Below are positions 47,723 through 63,463 of a stretch of 64,000 nucleotides of DNA, in pieces. Numbering within the stretch: the stretch's first letter is position 1; every line of letters begins with the position of its first letter. The DNA comes from Candidatus Latescibacterota bacterium (GTDB taxonomy: Bacteria; Latescibacterota; UBA2968). The notes under the pieces are model-generated. The model was not told the origin of the DNA. It did no database searches and saw nothing but the letters and a program-made list of their open reading frames with translations. The translations under genes and the position numbers were made by a program. The DNA is taken from assembly GCA_965198115.1 (NCBI GenBank), contig OZ240241.1, forward strand, positions 4,704,001 through 4,768,000, given 5' to 3'.

Positions 47723-49073
47723 TTGAGCCAACCCAACGTCATCTGGATCTTTGGCGATCAACACCGCGCGCAGGCAACCGGTTATATGGGCGATCCCAAC
47801 GCGAGAACGCCCAATCTCGATCGAATGGTCGCCCAGGGCGTCTCCTTCAGGCAGGCCATCTCCGGTTGTCCGTGGTGCACACCCTTCCGTGGCTCCCTCA
47901 TCACCAGCCGCTACACGCATCGTGCCGTCCAGCGCACCCCACAGGCGCTCGACACGAGCCTGCCCACGATCGCCGATACCTTCAACGAAAACGGCTATCG
48001 AACGGCCTGGTTCGGCAAGTGGCACCTCACTGGCGACAACGGCTTGATTCATGTCCCTCGTGAGGCTCGCGGACGTTTCGAGACCTGGATCGGTTACGAA
48101 CAACAACGCCCAGTACAAGTGCTGGGTCCACGGCCACGACGAAGACGGCCGCGACGACACAGATCCATTGCAGGAAAAACTTGAAATCTACGAAACCGAC
48201 GCCCTAACGAATCGCTTCATCGACTACATCGAAAAACGAAAGGACGGCGATCCTTTCTTCGCCGTCCTCAGCGTCCAGCCGCCGCACGGACCCTATGTCG
48301 CACCCCCGGAGTACGAGGCGCACTACAGTCCGGAATCAATCGTACTCCGTCCCAACGTCCCGGATCTACCACGGATCACAGACCGAGTTCGGAAGGATCT
48401 CGCAGGATACTACGCACAAATCGAAAACCTGGACTGGAACGTCGGTCGTATTCTCGACACCCTGGAGAAGCTCGGACTCTACGACAACACACACGTCTTC
48501 TTCTTCAGTGACCACGACGACTCACACGGCTCGAACGGCTCGAACGGCTACTTCGCGAAGAGCAATCCTTTCGAAGAATCTCTGCGGATCCCGTGTATCG
48601 TTCGACCCGCCGGTGGTCGGCGTGTGATCGAATCGAGCGACGCGGCCTTCAACACGGTCGACTTCGCACCAACCACGATGGGGCTATGTGGGATCGACAA
48701 ACCGAACTGGGCGGAGGGCACCGACTACAGCCATCACGTCATCACCGGTCGTCCGCAACCCGAGTCGGAACCAACGTCCGCTTACACTCAACAGTGCGTT
48801 CGCAAGCAGGCCCACTTCGATCGAACCTGGCGAGGCATCCGCACCAACGACGGATGGAAGTACATTTGCATCGAGGGCCAGCCATTCGTGATGTTCAACC
48901 TGAACGAGGACCCCTACGAGACGGTCAACCTCGCCTTCCAGCACGGACACCTTGAAAAACGCCAGGAGCTGCAAACCGAGCTCGCCACCTGGATCGAGCG
49001 CACGCACGATCAGTACCCATTGCCAGAACTGTATGGGGCGACCCACGTGTCGCCCCATAGCCCACGCACGTAG
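47723..49073 (+). CDS. Sulfatase (frameshift near 48100)
   Basis: QPNVI, RTPNLD, CTPFR, GKWHL; then PPHGPY, SDH, FNL.EDPYE. Confidence 0.9.
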
Positions 49074-49105: not shown

Positions 49106-50119
49106 ATGAACCGTGCCACACGCTTCACCCTATTGATGGTCCTCGTCACGTCTGTTCCCGCGTGGGCCTGGAATGATACCGGCCACAGACTCGTCGCTCT
49201 TATAGCCTGGGAACAGCTGCCACAAACCAGTCGCACCGAGATCGTCAGCACCCTGCGCACCCACCCTCGCTTTGCCACAGATTTCACCCTCCCCACCGAC
49301 ATCACGAAGGCCGATCGGACGACCCAGGACCGCTGGCTCTTCGCCCACGCTGCGACCTGGCCCGACATCGCCCGGGGTCTCGACGGTGAAGAAAGGAAAA
49401 CTTACCATCACGGCACGTGGCACTGGATCAACGTCCCGTTCTACCTGACCGACGCGGATCACGAAGAGTTGGAGCCCGATCTGCCCACCAACCTGGAGCT
49501 GACGTGGGACGAGGACGTCCACGGCGCTGGCCGGCTCAACGTCGTCCAATCCATCGCGCGTTCCAGACACATTCTCAAACAGAAAAGCGCTTCCTCATCC
49601 GAGAAAGCGCTCGCCATCTGCTGGTTGTTTCACACGGTTGGAGACATCCATCAGCCCGTGCACTCGACCGCTCTGTTCACGAGTCGGCGATTCAGACGCG
49701 GCGACGCGGGCGGCAACGGCATTACGATCGAAGGCGTCGAGGACCTGCACGCCTTCTGGGACGACCTGGCCACCGACGTCGTGACGCTCGCGGATCACGA
49801 CGCCCTGATCGATCGGTTCACATCCGACGCCGGGGTCGTTCGGCAAGCGGTCACCGGCGCCCAAACGACGGAAACGGTCGGTTGGCTCGACGAAAGCCAC
49901 GACCTCGCCCGCGACGTTGTCTACAACGACCTCATCCTCGACACCGTGGCCGCGAACGAAGCCGTCTATGACACGTCCAAGTCCTGGCGCGACCAACCTT
50001 ATCTTCCCGAGGTCGCGCTATCGGATCATTACCGCCGTCGAGCCGAACGCGTCGCCATTCGCCGCCTCGTCCTCGCCGGCCACCGCCTCGCCGTCGTACT
50101 CAGAGAGGTTGGATTTTAG
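49106..50119 (+). CDS. Secreted S1/P1 nuclease
   Basis: Signal peptide then W..GH, WPD, WHWIN, H.VGDIHQPVH, D.GGN, LHAFWD, AGHRLA motifs. Confidence 0.93.
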   Translation: MNRATRFTLLMVLVTSVPAWAWNDTGHRLVALIAWEQLPQTSRTEIVSTLRTHPRFATDFTLPTDITKADRTTQDRWLFAHAATWPDIARGLDGEERKTYHHGTWHWINVPFYLTDADHEELEPDLPTNLELTWDEDVHGAGRLNVVQSIARSRHILKQKSASSSEKALAICWLFHTVGDIHQPVHSTALFTSRRFRRGDAGGNGITIEGVEDLHAFWDDLATDVVTLADHDALIDRFTSDAGVVRQAVTGAQTTETVGWLDESHDLARDVVYNDLILDTVAANEAVYDTSKSWRDQPYLPEVALSDHYRRRAERVAIRRLVLAGHRLAVVLREVGF

Positions 50120-50240: not shown

Positions 50241-51502
50241 GTGCATGGTTTCATAAACATTATTACGTATGTCCTGAACATTATTTGTAGCTTATGTTCT
50301 CCTTCAAAAGGAGGAGAACAATGCCAAGACGTTCGCCTTATGTGGTGCTACTGTCTGAGAAGGAACGGGTCGACCTCGAGCGAATGGCTGGACAATATAC
50401 GTTACCGTATTATCAAGTGATCCGATCGAAAATCGTGCTTCTCGCCGCCGAGGGATTATCCAACAAGATTATCGCCCAACGGTTGGATGTCCCGCGTCCG
50501 ATCGTAAGCAAATGGCGTAAGCGCTTTTTCGAAGAGCGTCTTTCGGGACTCGAAGATAGATCTCGTCCCGGGCGCCCGCCCGGTTTTCCCCCCTCAGGTG
50601 GTCGTTCAGATCAAGGCGCTGGCGTGTGAACTACCGAGCGAGAGCGGGATACCGCTCTCGCGGTTCAGCTGTTCCGAGATTGCCGCCGAGGCAGTGCAAA
50701 GGGGCTTCGTTGCCAAGATCAGCGGCGCCACTGTCTGGCGCTGGTTGAACGAGGACGCGATTCGTCCTTGGTATCATCGCTCCTGGATTTTCCCACGGGA
50801 CCCGGACTTCCAAACCAAAGCAGGTAGAGTCCTTGATCTGTATCACCGCCAATGGCAAGGAAAGCCTTTAGGGCCGAGGGAATATGTACTTTCTGCCGAC
50901 GAAAAGACCAGTATTCAAGCACGAGCTCGCAAGCACGTTACCCTACCGCCAGCCTCGAACAGAGCGGCACGCGTTGAAACACGAATACGAGCGGAAAGGA
51001 GCCCTGGCCTATCTGGCTGCTCTCGACGTGCACAATGGTCGAATCTTCGGTCTCTGTGAGTCTTCTTCGGGTATCGAGCCCTTCAACCGGCTCCTGAGCC
51101 TGATCATGAGCCGGAAACCCTATTGCTCGGCAAAGAAAGTCTACCTCATCGTGGATAATGGCTCCTCGCACCGAGGGCAAACATGCATCGACCGTATCCA
51201 GGGGAAGTGGCCAAACATCCACCCCGTTCACCTTCCGATCCACGCAAGCTGGCTCAATCAGATCGAGATCTACTTCTCGATCCTCAAACGCAAGGCTCTG
51301 ACACCTATCGAATTTGCATCGCTCGAAGAGCTTGAGGCAAGAATCCTCGGTTTTCAGGAACGCTACGGACGTATCGCCACACCCTTCAAATGGAAGTTCA
51401 CACGAACAGATCTCGCGGAGATGATCGACAAACTCAGGTTCTACGATACGCCCTTGGCAAAGTCTGCTTAGAATACGTCACCGTATTTGAGAACAGGAGT
51501 AC
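50241..51502 (+). mobile_element. IS630-family insertion sequence
   Basis: TA duplication (50239-50240, 51503-51504); imperfect IRs ending ..ACGTAT. Confidence 0.85.
50321..51471 (+). CDS. IS630-family transposase (probable programmed -1 shift at TTTTCCCCCC 50584-50593; extra shift near 50980)
   Basis: HTH..WRKRF..RPGRP, SADEK, IVDN.SSH, HASWLNQIE, PFKW motifs. Confidence 0.92.
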
Positions 51503-51566: not shown

Positions 51567-53699
51567 ATGTCCGATACGCCTATAATCTGTCTGATCACCA
51601 TCCTCATCGTTTTCACCATCTTTGCGTGGCCGACCCTCGATCACGAGGCCCGCGACGCTAGAATGCTCCAGGTGATCTCGCTCGATGAGGCCGGATTTCT
51701 GAACGTTGTCCAAAATCTCCACGAAACAGGCGATCTGTCGATCGGCCATTTCACCTATCCAGCGCTATACCCCTACCTCGCCCTCATCATCGCAAAAGGG
51801 CAGGGTCTATTTGGAGCCATCACCGACGCGGCAATCATCAAGTCTCTACGTCTGATCTGCCTGGCAGCCGCGCTCCTTACTCTTCTGCTCGCCTATCGCA
51901 TCGGTGCATCCGCCTTCGACCGCGAAACAGGTGTAACGGCCGTTGCCCTCCTCGCCTCGGTCCCCGTCTTCTTCCGCTGGTCGGTCGAAGCGCACCCCGA
52001 TCTGCCACAGCTCGCTTTCCTGACCGCCGGCGTGTACGCCCTGTCACGTGCAGCCAAGCTCGAAACCCTGGGTGACCTGATTGCATCATCGTTATTCGCC
52101 GGTCTCGCCTTCGGCACAAAGTATGGGGGGTTCCTGCTGGTTCCGGCCATCGGGTTCGTGATTTTCAGGGTCGCCACCGATTCACGAACGAAACTTCAGG
52201 CGGGCCTCGCCTGTCTTCTCGTCTTCGCGGCAGCGTTCACGCTCACCAATCCCTACGTCATAGGGAATTGGGACCGGTTCACAGCCGATCTCTCCTTCGT
52301 CGGCAGAATCGTATCCGACGAACCGGATGTGTCACCACTCGCCTGGTTTGGGATTCTCTTCTCACCAGCCATCGGTTTGTTCATCGGAGTGCTACTCGCG
52401 TTAACCTGCGTTTTCTCTCTGACCGGCAAGGGCCCCCTCGCCCGACGAGAAGATCATCTTGTGCTCATCGTATTCGCGGCCACTTGCCTTGTCTTCCTCT
52501 TGATCCGAATCAGGTTCATCCAAGGACAGTATCTGTTGCCGGTCCTACCTGTCTTCGCCGTGGTGGCCGCAAGCGTCTTGCCCAGCCGATGCCGGGCGTG
52601 GGGGCTGCCGGCCAGTGGACGAATCGCTGTTGTCCTCGCCGTGGCCGTCGTGCAAGCCAGCTTCTCTCGCGATGCGTGGTCCGCGCGAGTCCGCGACCTC
52701 ACCGAGGATCCCATCATCGCATCCGGTCTCTGGCTCGAAGAAGCGTATGGATCGAACACCACCATTCTCTTCGACGCCTACGCGTATGTACCCTCGAAAT
52801 TCACCCGCGCGCAGAGCGTGTTCGGACCGTCCTATTCCTTGATCCATCTCCTTGCGCCTGACCTGCTCCTTACCCGATCGAGCATCCGCGATCGATATCG
52901 GAGCCCCGACACGCCCACCGACTTCCGTCTGACCGACGACGCAGCCGAGGCCGCGGACTTCCTCTACCTCCAGAACCAGCGCTACCGAGACATCCACGAC
53001 ACCTACAGCTATCTGGAGAACGGTGTGATCCCGGAATACAGCCTGGTTCGCGATTTCGGTGACGTCACCCTCTACGCCCGACGGGAGCGTGTCGATGCCG
53101 CTCGGTGGGATCGAATCCAGCACGCGCACACAACCGGCACCCTCCCGGCCGTCGCCGCTGCGGGATCGTTTATGTCATTTGGAACCCTGCACGCCACGGC
53201 GGGCAACTACCCCCAGGCCTCCATCCAATACCGAAAGGCGGTCGAAGCCCTTCCCGACAACGCGATGGCCAAGGACCACCTCGCGGCGTCGCTCGCCCAT
53301 CAGGACAGCGTTGAAGTCGCCTGGTCGTTGTGGGAGGAAGCAGAGACGCACTCGAACGACACGGCAAGCATCTGGATCCGCGCCGGCTGGGCGCTCTATG
53401 CGTCAGGCCACTACGAGGCTTCGCGAAACGCCAGCCAACGCGCCATCGAATCGGCACCTGAACATCCTTACCCGCGATTCAACATCGCGCTTGCCCACCT
53501 GGCCGAGGGCAACGTCACAGCTGCGGATTCAGTCTATTCCGCCGCCCTCGAGAACCACGAACTACCTGAAGCCACCGCCAACATTCTCGCTGAACTCAAA
53601 CAAAACGAGGGCCTCTCCCTCGAAGGAATAGCCCTCGTCAATCGCTTGCTGGTGGAACGGGGAAGTTCAGGACGAACCCAGTCCGATCATCCTGAGTAG
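51567..53699 (+). CDS. GT-C membrane glycosyltransferase (family 39, ArnT/PMT-like) with C-terminal TPRs
   Basis: DE motif after first TM, multiple TM helices, GLAFGTKY, TPR-like tail. Confidence 0.82.
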   Translation: MSDTPIICLITILIVFTIFAWPTLDHEARDARMLQVISLDEAGFLNVVQNLHETGDLSIGHFTYPALYPYLALIIAKGQGLFGAITDAAIIKSLRLICLAAALLTLLLAYRIGASAFDRETGVTAVALLASVPVFFRWSVEAHPDLPQLAFLTAGVYALSRAAKLETLGDLIASSLFAGLAFGTKYGGFLLVPAIGFVIFRVATDSRTKLQAGLACLLVFAAAFTLTNPYVIGNWDRFTADLSFVGRIVSDEPDVSPLAWFGILFSPAIGLFIGVLLALTCVFSLTGKGPLARREDHLVLIVFAATCLVFLLIRIRFIQGQYLLPVLPVFAVVAASVLPSRCRAWGLPASGRIAVVLAVAVVQASFSRDAWSARVRDLTEDPIIASGLWLEEAYGSNTTILFDAYAYVPSKFTRAQSVFGPSYSLIHLLAPDLLLTRSSIRDRYRSPDTPTDFRLTDDAAEAADFLYLQNQRYRDIHDTYSYLENGVIPEYSLVRDFGDVTLYARRERVDAARWDRIQHAHTTGTLPAVAAAGSFMSFGTLHATAGNYPQASIQYRKAVEALPDNAMAKDHLAASLAHQDSVEVAWSLWEEAETHSNDTASIWIRAGWALYASGHYEASRNASQRAIESAPEHPYPRFNIALAHLAEGNVTAADSVYSAALENHELPEATANILAELKQNEGLSLEGIALVNRLLVERGSSGRTQSDHPE

Positions 53700-53808: not shown

Positions 53809-54216
53809 CTACGGCGTCAGCAACGGAATGACGCGTCGCCCGAAGCGGCGATAGCTCCTGAAGTCACTGTCCAAGGTAAACACCCTGTGATCCGGATACA
53901 ACTCGGACATTCGCACGAGACACGCATCCGCGAGCGACATCGGTTGGTCTGCGTATTTCTCCAAGAGTTTCAGAACTTCATCAATCTCAGCTTCCAATGA
54001 AAAGGAGGCCTTCAGGAAGCCTCGCTCCAGCATCGCCCTCAGGCCCGCTGCACCGCTGAACGTTCTGCGTTCGAGTAGGTGAAACGATTCGGTCAACACC
54101 GCCTCGCAAGTAAGGAGTGGCGGCGCAAGCGGATCTGCAGCCTCTATACACCAGTGGTGATAAGGCTCGCTGGGATTGAGTAATGAAACGATGGGTCCAG
54201 CGTCAGCGATGGTCAT
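53809..54216 (-). CDS. vapC: VapC-family PIN domain ribonuclease toxin
   Basis: ADAG, VLTE, SLADA, TLDSDF: acidic PIN active-site residues all present; 135 aa. Confidence 0.92.
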   Translation of the reverse strand: MTIADAGPIVSLLNPSEPYHHWCIEAADPLAPPLLTCEAVLTESFHLLERRTFSGAAGLRAMLERGFLKASFSLEAEIDEVLKLLEKYADQPMSLADACLVRMSELYPDHRVFTLDSDFRSYRRFGRRVIPLLTP

Positions 54217-54473
54217 TTCTTTCGACCGGTGCCGAGGCTGTCTTCACCCAGATCCTCGAGATACTTGGGGTTCGTAGAAAGGTCCGCAGGCCCGTCTACG
54301 GTACCAACGAGATCTCGTATTAGATCCAATGCAGATTGATTCTTTTCGCTCTTTGTCAAGTAGGTCACCAGGGCCTCTCGAACGAGGGAAGACTTGCTAA
54401 CACCCTGTCTCTGTGCCTCGTAAACAATTTCTTTATCGAGCGAATCCGGAACCTTGATCGTAATCGCCTTCAT
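54213..54473 (-). CDS. CopG/ribbon-helix-helix antitoxin (copy 3)
   Basis: KAITIKV..EAQRQGVSKSSLVREAL; C-terminal GPADLSTNPKYLEDLG. Confidence 0.88.
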   Translation of the reverse strand: MKAITIKVPDSLDKEIVYEAQRQGVSKSSLVREALVTYLTKSEKNQSALDLIRDLVGTVDGPADLSTNPKYLEDLGEDSLGTGRKK

Positions 54474-54754
54474 TTTTGACTCCTCCTCTGCAACTGGAGA
54501 TGTCCCAAGCTATCTGTCCCAAAGTCCTCCATATATTTCGGATTCGTTGAGAGGTCACTTGGACCTTCACCGTCTGAATCCAACAAGTCTTTGATACGAT
54601 CGTAGACCGAGGGCTCTGAAGAATTCGATGGTTCTGCCAGGTAGGAGGCCAGGGCCTCTCGCACGAGTGACGACTTGCTGATCCCCTGCCTCTGTGCTTC
54701 GTATCTGACTCTCTCATCTATTTCTTCGCTTACTTTGAGCGTAATCGTTTTCAT
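54470..54754 (-). CDS. CopG/ribbon-helix-helix antitoxin (copy 2)
   Basis: KTITLKV..EAQRQGISKSSLVREAL; C-terminal GPSDLSTNPKYMEDFG. Confidence 0.88.
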   Translation of the reverse strand: MKTITLKVSEEIDERVRYEAQRQGISKSSLVREALASYLAEPSNSSEPSVYDRIKDLLDSDGEGPSDLSTNPKYMEDFGTDSLGHLQLQRRSQK

Positions 54755-55026
54755 CGCTCCTCCGCATTCGAATACCCGAGACTGTCCCGACCGAGTCCTT
54801 CCAGGTGTTTCGGGTTAGTAGATAGATCTCCCGGGCCGTCAAACGATCCGATCAGGTGCTTCATCCCTCCATAGACCGACTTTGGTTCATCCTGCTTCTT
54901 GCCATCTCCCAAATAGGCAGCCAGGGCCTCCTTGACGATAGACGACAGGGATACTCCCCTGCGACCCGCCTCGAGCCTGAGCTTCTCCTCGATTTTTTCC
55001 GGAATTCTGATTTTCATCGTCTTCAT
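54751..55026 (-). CDS. CopG/ribbon-helix-helix antitoxin (copy 1)
   Basis: KTMKIRI..EAGRRGVSLSSIVKEAL; C-terminal GPGDLSTNPKHLEGLG. Confidence 0.88.
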   Translation of the reverse strand: MKTMKIRIPEKIEEKLRLEAGRRGVSLSSIVKEALAAYLGDGKKQDEPKSVYGGMKHLIGSFDGPGDLSTNPKHLEGLGRDSLGYSNAEER

Positions 55027-55046: not shown

Positions 55047-55093
55047 GTATTACCGTCTGCGCAAAAGGTATTACCTTTGTAGGGTGGCGTCAA
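55047..55093 (-). promoter_or_regulatory. Promoter/operator of the TA operon
   Basis: TTGACG-N17-TACCTT on the minus strand; palindrome AAAGGTA-T-TACCTTT (55064-55078) and a second GTATTAC box 21 bp away. Confidence 0.7.
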
Positions 55094-55527: not shown

Positions 55528-55576
55528 AGCCCCAAGTAGGCCTTGCAGAGGGGCCTGCGTGGGGCTTTCTGTTTTT
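55528..55576 (+). terminator. Intrinsic terminator located upstream of the surface-protein genes
   Basis: AGCCCCA..GTAGGCCTT/GGGGCCTGC..TGGGGCT stem followed by TTCTGTTTTT. Confidence 0.75.
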
Positions 55577-55624
55577 GCGTTGGGAGCTTGTGGGTTTCGG
55601 ACTTTCCGACCGCAGACCAACCAA

Positions 55625-57396
55625 ATGACAAGCCGTTATTCCCTCGCCTTCGTCTGCTGCCTCATTCTCGTCTGCCTGACGTGGACACCCAGGTTGCACG
55701 CTGCAGCCATCTCTTGGGACGGCGGCGGCGACGGCATCAGTTGGGATGATAACACCAACTGGAGCGGGGACGTCCTACCTGGCGGCGCCGATGACGTGAC
55801 CATCAACGTTGGCGGTACTCCAACCATTCTGCACTCCACCGGCACCACTACGATCAACAGCCTGTCTTGCGACGAGAACCTCATCCTTTCAGGCGGATCG
55901 TTGGATCTCGCGGCTGCCTCAACCATTACTGCGAACGGCGCACTCTCCCTGACAGGTGGCACCTTGACGGGGGCCGGCACGTTGACGGTGAACAGTGCGA
56001 TGACGTGGTCGTCCGGCGCGATGAGCGGCACCGGCACCACAGAGATCGCCGGCGGCGCGACGCTGACCATCTCCACCGCCACCGCAAAGACGCTCTCCCA
56101 GCGCACGCTCTCGATCCTGAACACCGGCATCGCCAACGTCACCGGCACCGGACAGATCGGCTTGCAAACCTCCGCCGTCATCGACAACCAGGCCGGCGGC
56201 ACCTTCGACGTCCAGGTCGACGCCAACATCGCCCACACCTTCGGCGCGGTGGTCACCATCAACAACGCCGGCACCTTCCAAAAATCCGGCGGCACGGGCA
56301 CCACACAAATCGGCGGCGGCATCGCGTTCAACAACACAGGATCCGTAAAAGTCCAGATGGGAACCCTCGATTTCGCCGGCACATTTTCAAGTTTCTCGGG
56401 TACAACCCTTACTGGCGGAACCTACGATGTCTCTGGCATATGCAGTTTCCCAGCGCCGACATCGTCACGAACGCGGCCACCATTATCCTGGATGGTGCAG
56501 GTTCACTGATCGAGCCCACGGGCGGGGGCGCCGATGCCATCACGAACTTCGCGACGAACGCGGCTGCCGGCAGTTTCGAGATCAAGAACAGCCGCAATTT
56601 CACGTCGGCTGCGGCCCTGAGCAACGCCGGAACGGTCACGATCGGCACGGGCTCGACATTGACCGTACCCGCCGCCGCCAATTATACGCAGACGTCCGGA
56701 ACGACGACCGTCGACGGCACGCTTACGACAACTGGTATCGTCGACATTCAAGCGGGTTCATCGTTGCTCGGCACCGGGAATGTCAACTCGAACACGACCA
56801 ACGCGGGGTCTACTGGACCGGGAACTTCCGCCGGTCAATTGACGGTGACCGGCAACTACACACAAACATCCGCAGGCACGCTGGATATCGAGCTCGGCGG
56901 CACCACCGTCGCCACACAGTACGATCAGCTGATCGTCACAGGCACGGCTCCCACTTTCAGATGGATCGAGGTTTACGCGGCCAATGGAACGATCAACACC
57001 TCCGACCGGCGCAGGAAGCGCGACATTCGGGACATCGACTACGGGCTGGATGAACTGCAGAAGTTGAAACCGGTCCGATACCGCTGGAAAGATCATCCCG
57101 AACGGGGAGAGCGACTCGGGCTGATCGCGCAGGATGTGCAGGAGGTGATTTCAGAAGTCGTCAACGTCGGAAACGACAAGGACCAAACGCTCGGGGTGTA
57201 TTACTCGGATCTAATTCCGGTACTCATAAAGGGGGTGCAGGAACAGCAGGCAATGATCGAGAGACAGGGAAATGAAATCGAAGAACTCAGGAAGATGGTT
57301 CGTGAGCTCGGCCTCAAGACGGCGGGTGCTGAAGCGGACGTCGATCCAACTTCGGTGTCGCTCGAAAGGGTAACTGACAAAAACGATAAGTCATGA
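55625..57396 (+). CDS. Secreted Gly/Thr-rich beta-helix protein with C-terminal peptidase S74 (intramolecular chaperone) domain; frameshift near 56440
   Basis: Signal peptide, WDGGG..W..NW cap, autotransporter-passenger-like repeats, then RW..VYAANGTINTSDRRRK..LKPVRYRWK..GLIAQDV..YSDLIPVLIKGVQE and coiled coil. Confidence 0.85.
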
Positions 57397-60300
57397 AACC
57401 ATCGATGCGCACCATCATTCTCACGGCTCTGGCACTGATCTGGAGTCTCACCTCCAACGCACTCGCCCAGATCAATCAGCCGCGCACTGTCGTCTCCAAC
57501 GGTGGCGAGAAGTCCACTGCCGCGGGCCAGATCCTGCACAGCACCTTTGGCCAGGTGTTCGCCGGGACGACCAGCAACGCCTCCAACACAAACGAGATCG
57601 GGTTCTGGCACACGCTCTATCAGAACAACCAACCGATGGCCACACCACAGACGGTCGGCACGAACGAGGACACGGACGTCACGGTCACCCTCGGCGGGAC
57701 AGATGCCGACGGGGATCCCTTGACGGCTCTGATCTCCACGTTGCCGGCGAACGGATCCGTCTATCAGACGCCGGATGGAACGGCTCGCGGCGCCCAGATC
57801 ACGAGCGTGCCCACAACCGTCACTGACGCATTGCGCCGCATCATCTACGTCACCGCCTTGAACGGCACGGGCAACGGCCACGGAAGCATCGGCTTTAAAA
57901 TGAACGATGGATCGCTCGACTCACCCGAGGCCACCATCACGGTCGATGTAACCGCGGTCAACGACGCGCCCACCCTCAACGCTATCGCCAACCCGTCGCA
58001 GATCCAGGAGAATGCTGGCCAGCAAACGGTCAACCTCGCCGGCATCGGTCCTGGAGGTGGCACCGACGAATCCGGCCAGACCCTGACGGTCACTGCCACG
58101 TCCAACAACACCAGTCTGATTCCCAACCCGACAGTGACCTACGCGAGTCCAAACAGCACGGGCAGTCTCGTTTACGTGCCCGCCTCCAACCAGGATGGCT
58201 CGGCCGTCGTCACCGTCACGGTTGCGGACAACGGAGGAAACGCCAACGGGGGCGCGAACACCATCAGCCGGACCTTCACGGTATCCGTCGCCGACGCGAG
58301 CGCGCCACCTCCTCCACCTCCACCACCGCCACCACCGCCACCCGCGAACAACCCGCCGACCATCGCTTCTATCGCCCCCCTGTCGGCGGTTCAGAATACG
58401 CCCATCACCTTCAACGTTCCGGTTTCCGACGAGAACGTGAGCACCACCGACATCATCGTGTCGGGGCATGACGCGTCCCTGATTCCGACCGTACAGATTT
58501 TGAGAAAATCGATCACCGTCACCCCGATCGATGACGTCTTCACGACGACCATCAGCCTCGTCGCCAGAGACGCAAGCGGCCAGAATTCATCCCAAGTCAC
58601 CGTCATCCTCACCTGGACACAGCCTCCCAACGAATTACCAACATTCGTCGATGGATCCTTCTTCCCTCCCGACGGAGCCGTAGACCAGTCCACTTCAATC
58701 TTCCTTTCGTGGGAAGGCCAGGACGGCGATGGCGACGCCCTGCTGTTCACCGTATTAACCGGCCCGTCAGCCGATGACCTGACCGTCCAGGCCGTCGATC
58801 TGACCGACACGACCTTCCTCCTCGACAACCTCGACCATCTCCAGACCGTCCATTGGCAGATTACCATCGACGACAGCAAGGGCGACCCGGTCCCCGGACC
58901 GATATCATCGTTCACGACCCTACCCCCGCCCATCGTCGGTCCCATCACCTTCATCAGTTTCCAGCCCGCCGACGGCGCCACGGACGTCTCGAGAGCGGTC
59001 GAGCTTCGGGGCCAGCCGGACATACCGGAAGGCACACGGTGACGTATTCCGTGCGGCTCGGCGACGCAAGCAACGAACTCGTTACGATTGCAGAAAACCT
59101 GACCGAGCCCCGTTTCTCGGTACTGCGGGCGCATTCCAGCAGCACGTTCTGGCAGATGGTGGCCATCAGCGGAGAGGAAGTTTCCGAGGGCCCGATTCTC
59201 ATGTTCACAGTAGTCGGGGATACACGAGCGCCCACCCTCCGCGGTGACGCTGTCGACATCGGGCCGACCACCGCCCGCATTATCGGGACAGCGGACGAGT
59301 CGGTGACCGGCGAAGTCCGGTTCGGACGCCAACCCGATCTGTCGGATGGAACGACGGTCACGTCGGACGCCGGCTTGGGGCGCAACGTGTCCGTGGACCT
59401 GACTGAACTGACCGATGGCGTCTACTACTATGAGGTGATCGGGATCGACGGCTCCGGCAACGTGGGCCGAAGCGCCATCCGCAGCTTCAGCCCCTTGCGT
59501 GCAGCCGATACAACCCCTCCGGTCTTTCTCGCCGGCCCCACCGTGGAAGGGATCGAGGATGTCACCGCCGTCGTGCGCTTCCGGTTGAACGAACGGTCGG
59601 CCGTCGAAGTCGCTCTTTCGGGCAATGGGGTCCTTGAGACGATTTCATCGGACCCCGCATTGATTCACATCATCAGACTCGACGGCGACCCGTCCACCGA
59701 ATACGAGATCGTCGTGACCGTCACCGACGCGGCCGGAAACGAGGCGCAGAGCCCTGTAATCACCTTCCAGACCAGGGAGTCGCCCGACATTGAACCGCCC
59801 GTCTACGTCCAGCGGCCCCAGACCGACCGTTCCCACATCGGCGCCATCGCGACGTGGGAGGTCAACGAACCCGTCTTTGGCGAGCTCAGATTCGGGCCGG
59901 CGTCGGGAGACCTGACAGAATCGGTATCCACCCTCGCGCCCGGGTTCGTTGTCTCCCTTGAAATCACTGATCTCGAGCCCAACACGACCTACGCGTTCCA
60001 GGCCGTGTCGACGGACCTTTCCGGAAACGTTCTGACAGGCGCCATTCGCACCTTCACGACCTTCGCCGCCCCTGACACGACACCGCCCATTGTCATCCAA
60101 GGGCCATCCGTGCGTGGTCTCTTGCAGGATCAGGCCATCGTCGCCTGGAAAACGAACGAGACCGCCTTTTCCCGCATCGTCTTCGACACTGAGGACATCT
60201 CTCTCCGGTCCTTCCGCACGCCCCTCAGCACGGAAGCCAAGACCGAACACGTACGGCGTCTGACCGGTCTCGACGCGGCCACACGATACAACTTCCAGGT

Positions 60301-63300
60301 CGTCAGCATCGATCCGGCCGGAAACATCAGCACCGTTGACGGCGGCGCGTTCAATACGTCGGCCGAGCCCGACACGACGCCACCCCGGCTGATCGTTGCG
60401 GCTACCGTGACGGAAATCAGGTCCGACGGGTTCACCGTTTTCTGGGAGACCGACGAACCTGCCACCACCGAACTGCTCCGGGAGCGCGTGGTCACGGGCA
60501 ACGACCCGACCCCGGGCGATCCGATCCGCCGGATCGTGGAAGATCTGGTTCAAAGCCACAACATCTCCCTCTTTGGTCTGATCCCGGACTCGGACTACCG
60601 GCTCACCATCCGATCTCTGGATGCGACCGGCAATGAATTCATCGCTGTGCTTCCGGTCGTGCATACCGCGCTGGAGTCCGACGTCGATCCGCCGGTCATA
60701 ACCGTGCATCCCTTCGTCCTCGGGCTCTCGGAAGCGACAGCTCAGATCGCCTGGCGCACCGACGAGCCGGCCACCGGCTTTGTCGAGTTCGATGTGCTTG
60801 CCGATTTTTCAACCTCGCGAACCGTCGGCTCAACGAGACCCGTCAGTAACCACGTCATCACATTGACTGGCCTGGAACCACAAACTCGACATTTCTACCG
60901 AACCCTGTCGGCAGACATCTCGGACAACGGTCCAAACGTCTTCCCCGCGATCGAGAGCGATCCTCTCGAATTCACAACCCTGGCGACACCCGATGTGACC
61001 CCACCCGAAATCGCGGAGGGACCCTTCGTCCTGTCGAAAGACGATGCCTCGGTCACCCTGAAGTTGGTGACGAGCGAACTGGCACGGACCCTATTCGTCT
61101 TCGGGACCGACCCGGAGGACCTGTCGCGCAGCCTGTCGGCGCCCGAGTTCACGATCGAACACATCGAAACGCTGACCGGTCTCGACCCGGCCACCGAATA
61201 CCACTACCAGGTCCACGCCTTCGACGTAGCAGACAATGGGCCTGCTATCAGCGTCATCCGGACCGTCGCGACCGACGACGTTCCCGATACGCGTCCACCG
61301 GTGATCATAAGCGGCCCATCGTCAGATGTGACAGCAACGACCGCCTCGATCGTCTGGGCTACGGACGAAGTGACTAACTCCCTCGTCTTACTCGAAGGGC
61401 GACAGGTTGCGGGCGATCCGAAGACCGAAGGGCATCGGGTACTGGTCACCAATCTGGCACCGGAAACGAGGCATTCCTACATCGTCATCTCAGCCGATCC
61501 TGCCGGAAACGAGTCCCGTAGTATCGAAAAGTTTTTCCGCACGCAAGCCGAGCCCGACATTGAACCGCCCATTGTCCTAGAGGGACCGTCTATCCCCTAC
61601 CTGTCAGATAGGCAAGTCACCTTCTGCCTTCTGACCAATGAGCCCTCGAGCACAGAACTCGTCGTGGGAACGGAAGAGGACTTCGTGACGCGGCCTCTGC
61701 CGTCGGTTGTCCGCAGAGACCTGAAACGATTCCGCTGCATCACGATGGGCGGGTTTGGAAGTGGAATGCCGCACCTCTTCCGGATCGTGGCGACCGATGG
61801 AGCAGGCAACCAGACGGTCATCGGGGATCCGCGGGGCTTCACACGGAAAGCCGGCGTCGTCACGAAGTTCCTCCAGGTACCGGGTGGGACCGGCAGCTTC
61901 GTCACAACGACCGAAGAGGATACGCAGAGACCCGCCATCCTCCGGGGTCCGCACGCCGTGGCCTCCACCACGACGACGCTCACCATCGAGTGGGAGACCG
62001 ACGAAAGCAGCGACAGCGGCATCGACTTCGGGATCGACGACATGGGCTTTCGCGTGGAAGCGGGCGAAGACGTCCTCGTCCACCGGATGGTCATCACCAA
62101 CCTGCTGCCTGGAACGACCTATCAGTATCAGGTCGGCTCGACAGACCCTGCGGGCAACGCTTCTACGAAAGGCATCTTCCTGGCCAGAACGGCGGCCGTC
62201 GAGGATCAGGCGGCCCCGCGGATCGTGGCTCCTCCATCGGTCATCTACCTGACCGAACGAAGTGCCGCGCTCGCCTGGCAGACGGACGAGGCTGCGGAGA
62301 CCTTTGTCGAATTCGGAACCGAAGATTTCGATAAGCAGATTGCGACACCCGACTTCGTCACCGACCATCGGATCACTCTCACGAATCTCGCGCCGTCCAC
62401 CACCTATCGTTACCGCGTCCAGGCCACCGTCCGCTGGCAGACCAACGAGCTGTCGGACAGCGCCGTCCGGTTCGGCGTGGGGACGGACCTCGGCTTCGAG
62501 GCGTTAGGCCTGATCGTCGGTTCCGCCCGCGATGTCATGAACCACGAAGTCCATCTTACGAATCTCGAGCCCGACACCGACTACGGCTTCGCCGTCCAAT
62601 CCGTCGACCGAAGCGGGAACGGTCCTACGACCTCCGACGTCTTCTTCTTCCGAACGACCGACGCGGCCGACGAATCGCCCCCATCGGTTCCGGCCGACCT
62701 TCGCGTACGCGCTGCCGAAGGCGAAGTCGTCGTCGCGTGGACCCCGGTTTCCGATTCGGACGTCGCCGGCTACGACATCCTGCGAGCGATCGGCGAGGAC
62801 GATCTGACTGAAGTGGTCACCCTCGTGCCCGGCCCCGAATACAGAGACGATGGACTCGACCCGGACCTCACCTACCGCTATGCGGTCCGGGCGGTCGATG
62901 CCGCGGCGAACGCCAGCGAGCTATCGGCCATCATCGAAGCCACGCCCGACGGATCGGGCCGGCCTTCCGCGCCTTCACCCTTGCCCCCATCCGGAGAAGG
63001 ACCCCTCCTCCAAGTCGGCAACGCCGAAAGCGAGGCCAACCTCACCTACAACTTCGAAGTCGCGCTCGACGAGGGCTTCGAAGAGATCGTCGCGCAGGCG
63101 TCCGGCATCCCCGAAGGTACCGGCGGCCTGCAGACGAATGTCACCGGCTGGCGGGTGGATGTAGCCCTCGAAGCCGAGCAGACCTACTTCTGGCGCGCCT
63201 GGGCTTTTGACGGGGTCTTCGACGGAGCCTTTTCGGCAGTGGGCGAGTTTGTTGCGGGAGAAGTCGCCATCGCCAACCCGGGAGACATCGACGGAGATCT

Positions 63301-63463
63301 CACCGTCGGGTTCACCGACTTCCTCGTTTTCGCGAGTGCCTTCGGATCAGCAATCGGAGAGGATCGCTTCGTGCCCCTACTCGATTTAAGTGGAGATGGT
63401 CGGATCGATTTTTCCGACTTCCTGCAGTTCGCGATGCTGTTCGGAACGGCCTACACCGGGTAG
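57393..63463 (+). CDS. Giant secreted protein: cadherin/Ig-like domains, poly-Pro linker, about 13 FN3-like repeats, C-terminal dockerin/EF-hand-like motif; frameshift near 59010
   Basis: Signal peptide; TNED, DADGDPL, VNDAP; P12 run; repeated DTTPP..W.TDE..H..LTGL.P.T.Y..D.AGN; terminal DIDGDLTVGFTDF..DLSGDGRIDFSDF. Confidence 0.88.

What the first reader, a model, noticed from the sequence alone, without database searches (positions are those of the whole stretch)
53809..55026. Three paralogous RHH antitoxins stacked in front of one VapC toxin, all translationally coupled
Seen: four minus-strand genes joined by three consecutive ATGA stop/start overlaps (54751-54754, 54470-54473, 54213-54216). 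The three small proteins are intact and diverged, and share an RHH domain plus the motif GPxDLSTNPKx(L/M)Ex(L/F)GxDSLG. The PIN toxin keeps its acidic catalytic residues. Known: VapBC loci are normally one antitoxin plus one toxin, with the antitoxin C-terminus binding the toxin and the RHH beta-strand reading the operator. Inference: preserved coupling with substantial divergence argues for a selected 3:1 antitoxin array rather than a recent duplication or assembly stutter. Copy 1 has a different recognition strand (TMKIR vs TITLK/AITIK), and the middle segments differ in all three. The array could be a bank of antitoxins against related VapCs in trans, heterodimers tuning conditional cooperativity, or several stress/phage sensors wired to one nuclease.
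Basis: partly seen in the sequence, partly recalled or inferred. Interest (0 to 1): 0.82.

Follow-up and report, generated by a model that had tools for sequence, protein, structure and literature searches.

The report
Three-antitoxin VapBC toxin operon
A bacterial self-poisoning module that normally pairs one antidote gene with one predicted RNA-cutting toxin here carries three intact, long-diverged antidote genes in a row, of which the one next to the toxin likely does most of the work while the two extras look partly relaxed or specialised.

Summary
Confirmed: three intact ribbon-helix-helix antitoxin genes (44-51% identical) precede one VapC26-like PIN toxin, joined by ATGA overlaps behind one promoter-like site; sequencing-run contigs match letter for letter. 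The 3:1 layout is rare: 2 of 179 related loci have two copies, none three. The copies are old (synonymous sites saturated, one clade rejected, p 3e-7), each closer to proteins of other genomes. But coupling is weak evidence of selection: the overlap is the family default (87 of 125 antitoxin-toxin junctions), so duplicating the gene reproduces it. No other toxin of this family is in the genome, so there is no resident target in trans. The toxin-proximal copy A3 is family-typical with the strongest ribosome-binding site; A1 has unusual DNA-reading residues, A2 an unusual toxin-binding segment; upstream copies in two other arrays also look degraded. Best reading (0.55): an ordinary VapBC26-like operon with old, partly redundant extra antitoxins. 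Division of labour (0.2) or an anti-addiction bank (0.15) remain open. Precedent: SpoIISABC (two paralogous antitoxins). A family operator, paired GTAWTAC, emerged. The scan's index showed no earlier report of this. New variant of a known kind; interest 0.38.

The parts
55065..55093 (-). Promoter-like site: -35 TTGACG (55093-55088), 17 nt spacer, -10 TACCTT (55070-55065); predicted, overlaps operator box 1
   Evidence: Read by eye from the leader printed; 8 of 12 consensus matches, below the threshold of the scan, which did not list it
55064..55078 (-). Predicted operator box 1, palindrome AAAGGTA-A-TACCTTT with core GTAATAC
   Evidence: GTAWTAC lies in 109 of 158 family leaders vs mean 1.1 (max 5) in 200 shuffles
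55047..55053 (-). Predicted operator box 2, GTAATAC, 21 nt from box 1
   Evidence: family spacing mostly 21-22 nt; this is the only exact paired site (10-20 nt gap) among 246 GTAWTAC boxes of the 8.4 Mb genome
54751..55026 (-). A1, RHH antitoxin paralogue, 91 aa; unusual DNA-reading residues (K5, R7, L27, K32); weak ribosome-binding site
   Evidence: model with two long helices and a low-confidence C-terminus
54470..54754 (-). A2, RHH antitoxin paralogue, 94 aa; typical RHH, D in place of a near-invariant G plus a one-residue insertion in the presumed toxin-binding segment; ribosome-binding site in the tail of A1
54213..54473 (-). A3, toxin-proximal RHH antitoxin, 86 aa; family-typical in both halves; strongest ribosome-binding site, in the tail of A2
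53809..54216 (-). T, VapC26-like PIN-domain toxin, 135 aa, four acidic active-site residues intact
   Evidence: TM 0.84 to 5x3t_B
53606..53622 (-). Terminator-like hairpin about 190 nt past the toxin stop, inside the end of the convergent gene; weak
   Evidence: 4 found in the region vs 2.2 +/- 1.4 in shuffles

Best explanation
This is a four-gene operon of three intact paralogous ribbon-helix-helix antitoxin genes and one VapC26-like PIN toxin gene, in which the toxin-proximal copy A3 is likely the main antitoxin and repressor and A1 and A2 are likely old, partly redundant extras under loosened constraint. Shown: gene layout, folds, intact toxin active site, single paired GTAWTAC site, age and non-monophyly of the copies, rarity of the layout. 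Inferred: one transcript from the promoter-like site; RHH dimers of A3 and A2 repress it at the paired boxes; the C-terminal DL-GS..GP-DLSTNPK segment folds onto the toxin and blocks its active site, as the VapB26 C-terminus does; free toxin would cut a translation RNA, the 23S sarcin-ricin loop being the best guess from VapC26/VapC20. The extras would raise the antitoxin:toxin ratio. Likely origin: duplication of the antitoxin gene between its two ATGA ends early in one lineage of this module, which yields coupled copies without further selection, followed by divergence, some exchange between copies and loss of different copies in different descendants.
For: A3 scores at the 84th percentile of 250 relatives in the C-terminal segment and the 24th in the RHH; A1 9th and 4th; A2 15th and 46th. 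Anti-Shine-Dalgarno pairing with the genome's own 16S tail: A3 -12.2, A2 -9.5, A1 -4.9, T -3.8 kcal/mol. In the two other arrays held as DNA the upstream copy is the odder one: L116 upstream 1st/2nd percentile and broken by a frame change vs 10th/87th downstream; L082 upstream 4th/2nd vs 28th/2nd. P0001 is a gene call running from an A2-like piece through frame changes into an A3-like protein. Antitoxin tree: A3 with P0006/7/9/10 (99/98), A1 with P0005/8 (90/91); toxin tree puts T, P0122-P0125, the L116 and L118 toxins and two more in one lineage (94/96). L118, in that lineage, has a single antitoxin that groups with the L116 upstream copy. Overlap is the family default. Fold and active site; target of VapC26/VapC20 from passages of PMC5175351.
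Against: A1 and A2 keep the whole GP-DLSTNPK motif and open frames; neutral drift of 0.3-1.0 changes per site left these frames open in only 1.4-7.7% of 2000 simulations each, and three neighbouring genes are split by frame changes that the run contigs confirm, so the extras are not simply dead. Strong ribosome-binding sites sit in the tails of A1 and A2 (13% and 5.5% of coding 19-mers do as well). Relative-rate tests of A1 against P0005/P0008 were not significant (8 tests, p 0.09-1.0). The antitoxin lineage has modest support (81/72). The neighbourhoods of the closest proteins (P0005-P0010) could not be read. The odd residues of A1 and A2 fall in complementary halves, which fits division of labour as well as relaxation.
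Confidence: 0.55

Rival explanations
1. Division of labour: A1 has become a toxin-binding protein that no longer reads the operator, A2 a repressor that binds the toxin weakly, A3 does both; mixed RHH dimers would uncouple neutralisation from autorepression and set the activation threshold.
For: A1 departs at strand positions 5 and 7 and helix-B positions 27 and 32 (K5 in 0 of 262, K32 in 1 of 262; no relative among 262 departs at more than 2 of these 4, 1 of 142 further proteins at 3) while its nearest relatives P0005/P0008 keep them. A2 has D at a column that is G in 259 of 262 with a typical RHH. One operator pair for three repressors.
Against: The four positions were picked after seeing A1; two of the changes are conservative (K to R, R to K); 1 of 142 further proteins also has D at the A2 column; A3 still has both halves, so no function depends on the split; rate tests not significant; L116's upstream copy is broken as assembled.
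Confidence: 0.2
2. Anti-addiction bank: antitoxin alleles from related modules were collected at one locus by recombination, and each neutralises a different incoming VapC variant of the same lineage.
For: Copies are not a clade. An A1-type protein (P0005) and an A3-type protein (P0007) share their longest-contig lengths, 8,116,192 and 1,421,101, with toxins P0123 and P0125, which are sisters apart from T; if these are pairs, A1-type proteins go with a different toxin variant. The module is patchy: not found full-length in 60 nearest relatives, operon GC 52.8% vs 59.1%. Anti-addiction by orphan antitoxins is discussed in PMC7354431 (passages).
Against: The family is nearly absent from the mobile collections searched: 5 viral hits, all RHH-only, and 1 partial hit in 72,556 plasmids. 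No resident target. The pairings rest on contig lengths only. Ancestral duplication with differential loss explains the same trees.
Confidence: 0.15
3. A1 and A2 are now non-functional passengers that have not yet picked up a stop or frameshift.
For: Low family percentiles, weak ribosome-binding site for A1, broken upstream copies in L116 and, as called, P0001; the genome carries 67 near-identical copies of one insertion sequence and split genes nearby.
Against: Both frames open, core motif invariant, pN far below pS; the strong ribosome-binding site before A2; the sister copies in L082 show dN 0.19 vs dS 1.34 with both frames intact.
Confidence: 0.08
4. Assembly artefact or very recent triplication.
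For: None found.
Against: Copies 44-51% identical, synonymous sites saturated; run contigs span the locus unchanged; one clade rejected.
Confidence: 0.01

Closest known systems
VapBC26 of Mycobacterium tuberculosis (PDB 5X3T; PMC5737657, passages; PMC5175351, passages)
   Same: Nearest solved relative of T by sequence (E 1.4e-6, only hit at E<=1) and fold (TM 0.84); same four acidic residues; VapB26 is the second-best solved match of the antitoxin profile (RHH part, E 6e-5); antitoxin gene upstream; palindromic operator.
   Different: 26% identity only; the match to VapB26 covers residues 1-43, not the DLSTNPK segment; different operator sequence; one antitoxin there, three here; RNA target of T untested.
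SpoIISABC of Bacillus (PMC4926146 abstract and passages; PMC4526809 abstract; PMC4803016 passages)
   Same: One toxin with adjacent paralogous antitoxins born by duplication, independently in two lineages; one copy more relaxed; reason for the extra copy open.
   Different: Membrane toxin, antitoxins unrelated to RHH proteins, two copies not three, fixed in all Bacillus species studied, and described with separate promoters; here the layout is rare and one promoter-like site is seen.
Tripartite type II modules PasABC, omega-epsilon-zeta, PaaR-PaaA-ParE (PMC4803016, passages) and FaRel with two antitoxins (PMC11782079, passages)
   Same: More than two genes per module; repression and neutralisation can be carried by different proteins.
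   Different: Their extra components are not paralogues of the antitoxin.
Orphan antitoxins / anti-addiction (PMC7354431, PMC2701414, passages)
   Same: Surplus antitoxin genes without their own toxin, read either as remnants or as guards against incoming modules.
   Different: Here the surplus genes are inside the operon of a homologous, intact module.

Membership tests
VapBC type II toxin-antitoxin | PIN-domain toxin fold | tested here: met
   Model pLDDT 96, top fold matches VapC26 and VapC20; Pfam PIN E 2.4e-4, 1.5 bits under cut-off
VapBC type II toxin-antitoxin | Acidic active-site residues | tested here: met
   D5, E43, D97, D116 present; E43 and D97 invariant, D5 and D116 in at least 90% of 97 aligned relatives; equivalents
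VapBC type II toxin-antitoxin | Small DNA-binding antitoxin gene upstream of and overlapping the toxin gene | tested here: met
   RHH_1 above cut-off for all three; family antitoxin followed by a T homologue in 160 of 179 loci
VapBC type II toxin-antitoxin | Operator repeat in the promoter region | tested here: met
   Paired GTAWTAC boxes, 109 of 158 leaders vs about 1 by chance; binding itself not tested
VapBC type II toxin-antitoxin | Two genes, one antitoxin per toxin | tested here: not met
   Three antitoxin genes; this is the variant feature, the other features hold
VapBC type II toxin-antitoxin | Toxin inhibits growth and is neutralised by direct antitoxin binding | not testable with these tools
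VapC20/VapC26 sarcin-ricin-loop cutters | Cleavage of the 23S rRNA sarcin-ricin loop | not testable with these tools
   Only fold and sequence proximity
SpoIISABC-type toxin-antitoxin-antitoxin | Membrane-bound SpoIISA toxin | tested here: not met
   T is a soluble PIN protein; not a member, only the same logic
SpoIISABC-type toxin-antitoxin-antitoxin | Each paralogous antitoxin neutralises the toxin alone | not testable with these tools
   Needs single-copy rescue

The most novel reading that the evidence does not exclude
A selected multi-antitoxin VapBC in which three paralogues have split the job (A1 neutraliser blind to the operator, A2 repressor with weak toxin grip, A3 both) or guard against different toxin variants, with mixed RHH dimers setting the firing threshold of one ribosome-cutting nuclease; a natural test bed for how antitoxin specificity and conditional cooperativity evolve after duplication.
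Probability: 0.3. Interest if true: 0.65.

Novelty: new variant of a known kind. Interest (0 to 1): 0.38.

Why it matters
Type II modules are treated as two-gene units, and pair-finding pipelines would drop the extra genes as orphans. Three paralogues at about 50% identity in front of one toxin, with single-copy relatives of each type, give a small, cloneable system for asking what happens to an antitoxin's two functions after duplication. If the extras are just redundant and fading, the case is a curiosity. The by-product, a sharply defined operator (paired GTAWTAC, 21-22 nt apart) for a widespread RHH/VapC26-like family with no dedicated Pfam or NCBIfam model among the hits, is directly testable.

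Tried and rejected
Complex prediction of T with the A1 C-terminus: tool not available, no result. Cluster look-up for P0001 and P0005-P0013: database switched off, so their sources and neighbourhoods stay unread. Sequencing-run search listed no RNA holder, which says nothing on expression. IQ-TREE codon run printed a tree but no omega; pairwise counts were used instead and dS among the window copies is saturated, so no ratio can be given. The first tree (140 rows) was a quick tree in place of an unfinished careful one; conclusions rest on the careful 35-row tree (rows chosen by me from the neighbourhood seen, so the AU test concerns that subset). Script flagged L124, L125 and L134 as multi-copy; dropped because their second hits are 17-40 bits and 670 bases or more away, past the toxin or not adjoining; L116 was not flagged (split hit) and was added by eye. 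Tails of A1 and A2 as toxin-gene remnants: no toxin-like reading seen by eye in other frames. Tail of A1 as a relic of the leader (GGTATTCG vs GGTAATACG): resemblance only, no operator box inside the array. Gene conversion between A2 and A3 in helix B: 11 of 17 same-residue codons identical vs 10 of 30 elsewhere, a hint only. Enrichment of arrays in this lineage: 1 of 2 vs 1 of 177, Fisher p 0.02, kin not independent and numbers tiny. 'Longer' protein search: 9 hits, of which only P0246 was read (one unit with an N-terminal extension). Viral and plasmid collections: no full-length member. Synteny with the same-genus genome G001: best match to the flanking gene only 28% identical, so no empty site could be defined. 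Scan index: 5 look-ups, two unrelated notes. Literature: searches; PMC8790059, PMC3141249, PMC12654330 checked by passages and irrelevant. Supplements were not read; TA-survey tables (e.g. of PMC2701414) could list such arrays.

Full report
1. Observation. The four genes, their lengths, the three ATGA junctions, the shared motif and the strand differences are all as reported. A1, A2 and A3 pass the Pfam RHH_1 cut-off; T is PIN-like just under cut-off; no NCBIfam model reaches its cut-off for any of the four. Contigs of two runs of one sample, which may be the source DNA, span the locus in one piece with no difference. The genome is one 8.43 Mb contig; tblastn finds no further copy of the antitoxins or the toxin, and a 97-sequence toxin profile finds only T.

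2. The toxin. The only solved sequence relative at E<=1 is VapC26. The model (pLDDT 96) matches VapC26 at TM 0.84 and VapC20 at 0.80-0.82 ahead of all other PIN folds. D5, E43, D97 and D116 are conserved in the family and correspond to the VapC26 active site D4, E42, D97, D116 (PMC5737657, passages). VapC26 and VapC20 cut the 23S sarcin-ricin loop (PMC5175351, passages); that T does the same is an inference from 26% identity and fold.

3. The family is a common two-gene module. The antitoxin profile finds 1289 proteins at E<=0.001 and 2366 representatives at 50% clustering. I counted copies per locus in 80 species-genome loci (best 80 of 491), 19 full-strength loci from the window's phylum (168 genomes) and 80 metagenome loci (best 80 of 393 from 36 of 64 parts scanned). 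Of these 179 (not de-duplicated between collections; 164 have at least 350 bases upstream), 160 have a T homologue and 2 have tandem antitoxins: L082 (two intact copies, 63-base spacer) and L116 (upstream copy broken by a frame change, ATGA-coupled to the second). None has three. Two further samples of 401 genomes gave 17 and 46 matches; the only adjacent pair was L082 again (at most 14 candidates scored per genome). Two gene calls point to further tandems that I could not read as DNA: P0001, an A2-like piece running into an A3-like protein, and P0250, two distant units in one call. The module was not found full-length in the 60 nearest relatives, and the operon is 52.8% GC against 59.1%, consistent with a patchy, acquired module.

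4. An operator. GTA[AT]TAC lies within 60 bases upstream of 109 of 158 distinct family leaders, against 1.1 in shuffles, usually paired 21-22 bases apart. The window has two boxes before A1 and none inside the array; this is the only exact paired site in the genome. A -35/-10-like site overlaps box 1 (by eye, 8 of 12). So the four genes are predicted to form one autoregulated unit.

5. Age and origin. Synonymous sites are saturated between the copies (pS 0.78-0.81, pN 0.29-0.36), as far as against L116. A careful tree of 35 rows places A3 with P0006, P0007, P0009, P0010 (99/98), A1 with P0005 and P0008 (90/91) and A2 unresolved in the same lineage (81/72); one clade for the three is rejected (p-AU 3.4e-7). 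The toxin tree recovers the matching lineage (94/96): T, P0122 (75% identical), P0123, P0125, P0124, P0130, P0136 and the L116 and L118 toxins. In this lineage the window has three copies, L116 two, P0001 probably two or more, L118 one. The L082 pair are sisters outside it (100/97), an independent duplication with dN 0.19 and dS 1.34. Early duplication with differential loss fits; stepwise collection of alleles fits too. A2 looks mosaic (13 of 17 N-terminal residues as in P0005/P0008, 22 of 23 in helix B as in P0006).

6. Coupling is weak evidence. The -4 overlap joins antitoxin and toxin in 87 of 125 distinct loci and 131 of 160 antitoxin genes start ATGA. A duplication between these two ends gives coupled copies automatically (inference). 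What does suggest selection on expression is that the tails of A1 and A2 hold ribosome-binding sites for the next gene (-9.5 and -12.2 kcal/mol, against -4.9 for A1 and -3.8 for T; 13% and 5.5% of coding 19-mers reach the first two values).

7. The copies are unequal. Against 250 relatives, A3 is at the 24th (RHH) and 84th (C-terminal) percentile, A2 at 46th and 15th, A1 at 4th and 9th. A1 has K at strand position 5 (S or T in 93%, K in 0 of 262), R7, L27 and K32 (1 of 262); A2 has D where 259 of 262 have G, next to an inserted residue. That positions 3, 5 and 7 face DNA is recalled RHH knowledge, not from a call. These positions were chosen after inspection, the relatives are not independent, and relative-rate tests were not significant. 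The upstream copies of L116 and L082 also score low. Against plain decay: the frames are open, the core motif is invariant, neutral simulations keep such frames open in under 8% of runs, and neighbouring genes are split by frame changes that the run contigs confirm.

8. Targets in trans. The 12 other PIN genes each have an adjoining small upstream ORF and are unrelated to T at the sequence level. The family gave no full-length hit in the viral or plasmid collections. A resident bank is therefore unsupported; guarding against incoming variants is open.

9. Comparison. It works like VapBC26 and meets the testable VapBC features except the one-to-one gene count. The closest logic in print is SpoIISABC, one toxin with two duplicated antitoxins, each able to neutralise it, one more relaxed. 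Five searches of the held library showed no VapBC with tandem paralogous antitoxins and no three-copy case; the library lacks most subscription papers and I read no supplements.

10. Verdict. Real, rare, old; most likely an ordinary VapC26-like module with partly redundant extra antitoxins (0.55); division of labour 0.2, anti-addiction bank 0.15, passengers 0.08, artefact 0.01. New variant of a known kind, interest 0.38; the most novel reading has probability 0.3 and would deserve 0.65. Binding of any copy to T is untested.

Noticed in passing
window 50294-51471 (+): Insertion-sequence-like element (HTH plus DDE_3, in three overlapping frames; IS630-like is my recalled label) with 67 matches over 1 kb at 99-100% identity in the genome and about 85-fold contig depth: a recent burst.
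   Followed up: partly
window 47723-49073, 55559-57396, 57393-63463 (+): A sulfatase, a repeat protein ending in a Peptidase_S74 domain and a large Ig/FN3-repeat protein each appear split over two frames; run contigs covering these stretches show no indel against the window, so the breaks look real in that sample.
   Followed up: partly
Leaders of 158 family loci (L006-L195): Family-wide candidate operator: paired GTA[AT]TAC boxes 21-22 nt apart, often with TTGAC upstream; not looked up in the literature by name.
   Followed up: partly
L082 3001-3972 (genome G168): Independent two-antitoxin version with both copies intact and sisters; the genome has 6 matches to the family.
   Followed up: yes
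L116 about 208-1145: Two-antitoxin version in the window's lineage; upstream copy changes frame mid-gene (error or decay not resolved) and is ATGA-coupled to the second.
   Followed up: yes
Proteins P0262, P0335: Antitoxins with the C-terminal toxin-binding-like segment repeated twice behind one RHH.
   Followed up: no
Toxins T, P0123, P0125: C-terminal 49 residues nearly identical while the N-terminal halves differ strongly: strong constraint or mosaicism.
   Followed up: no
window 49106-50119 (+) and 51567-53699 (+): S1/P1 nuclease; PMT_2 membrane glycosyltransferase with TPR repeats, convergent with the operon.
   Followed up: no
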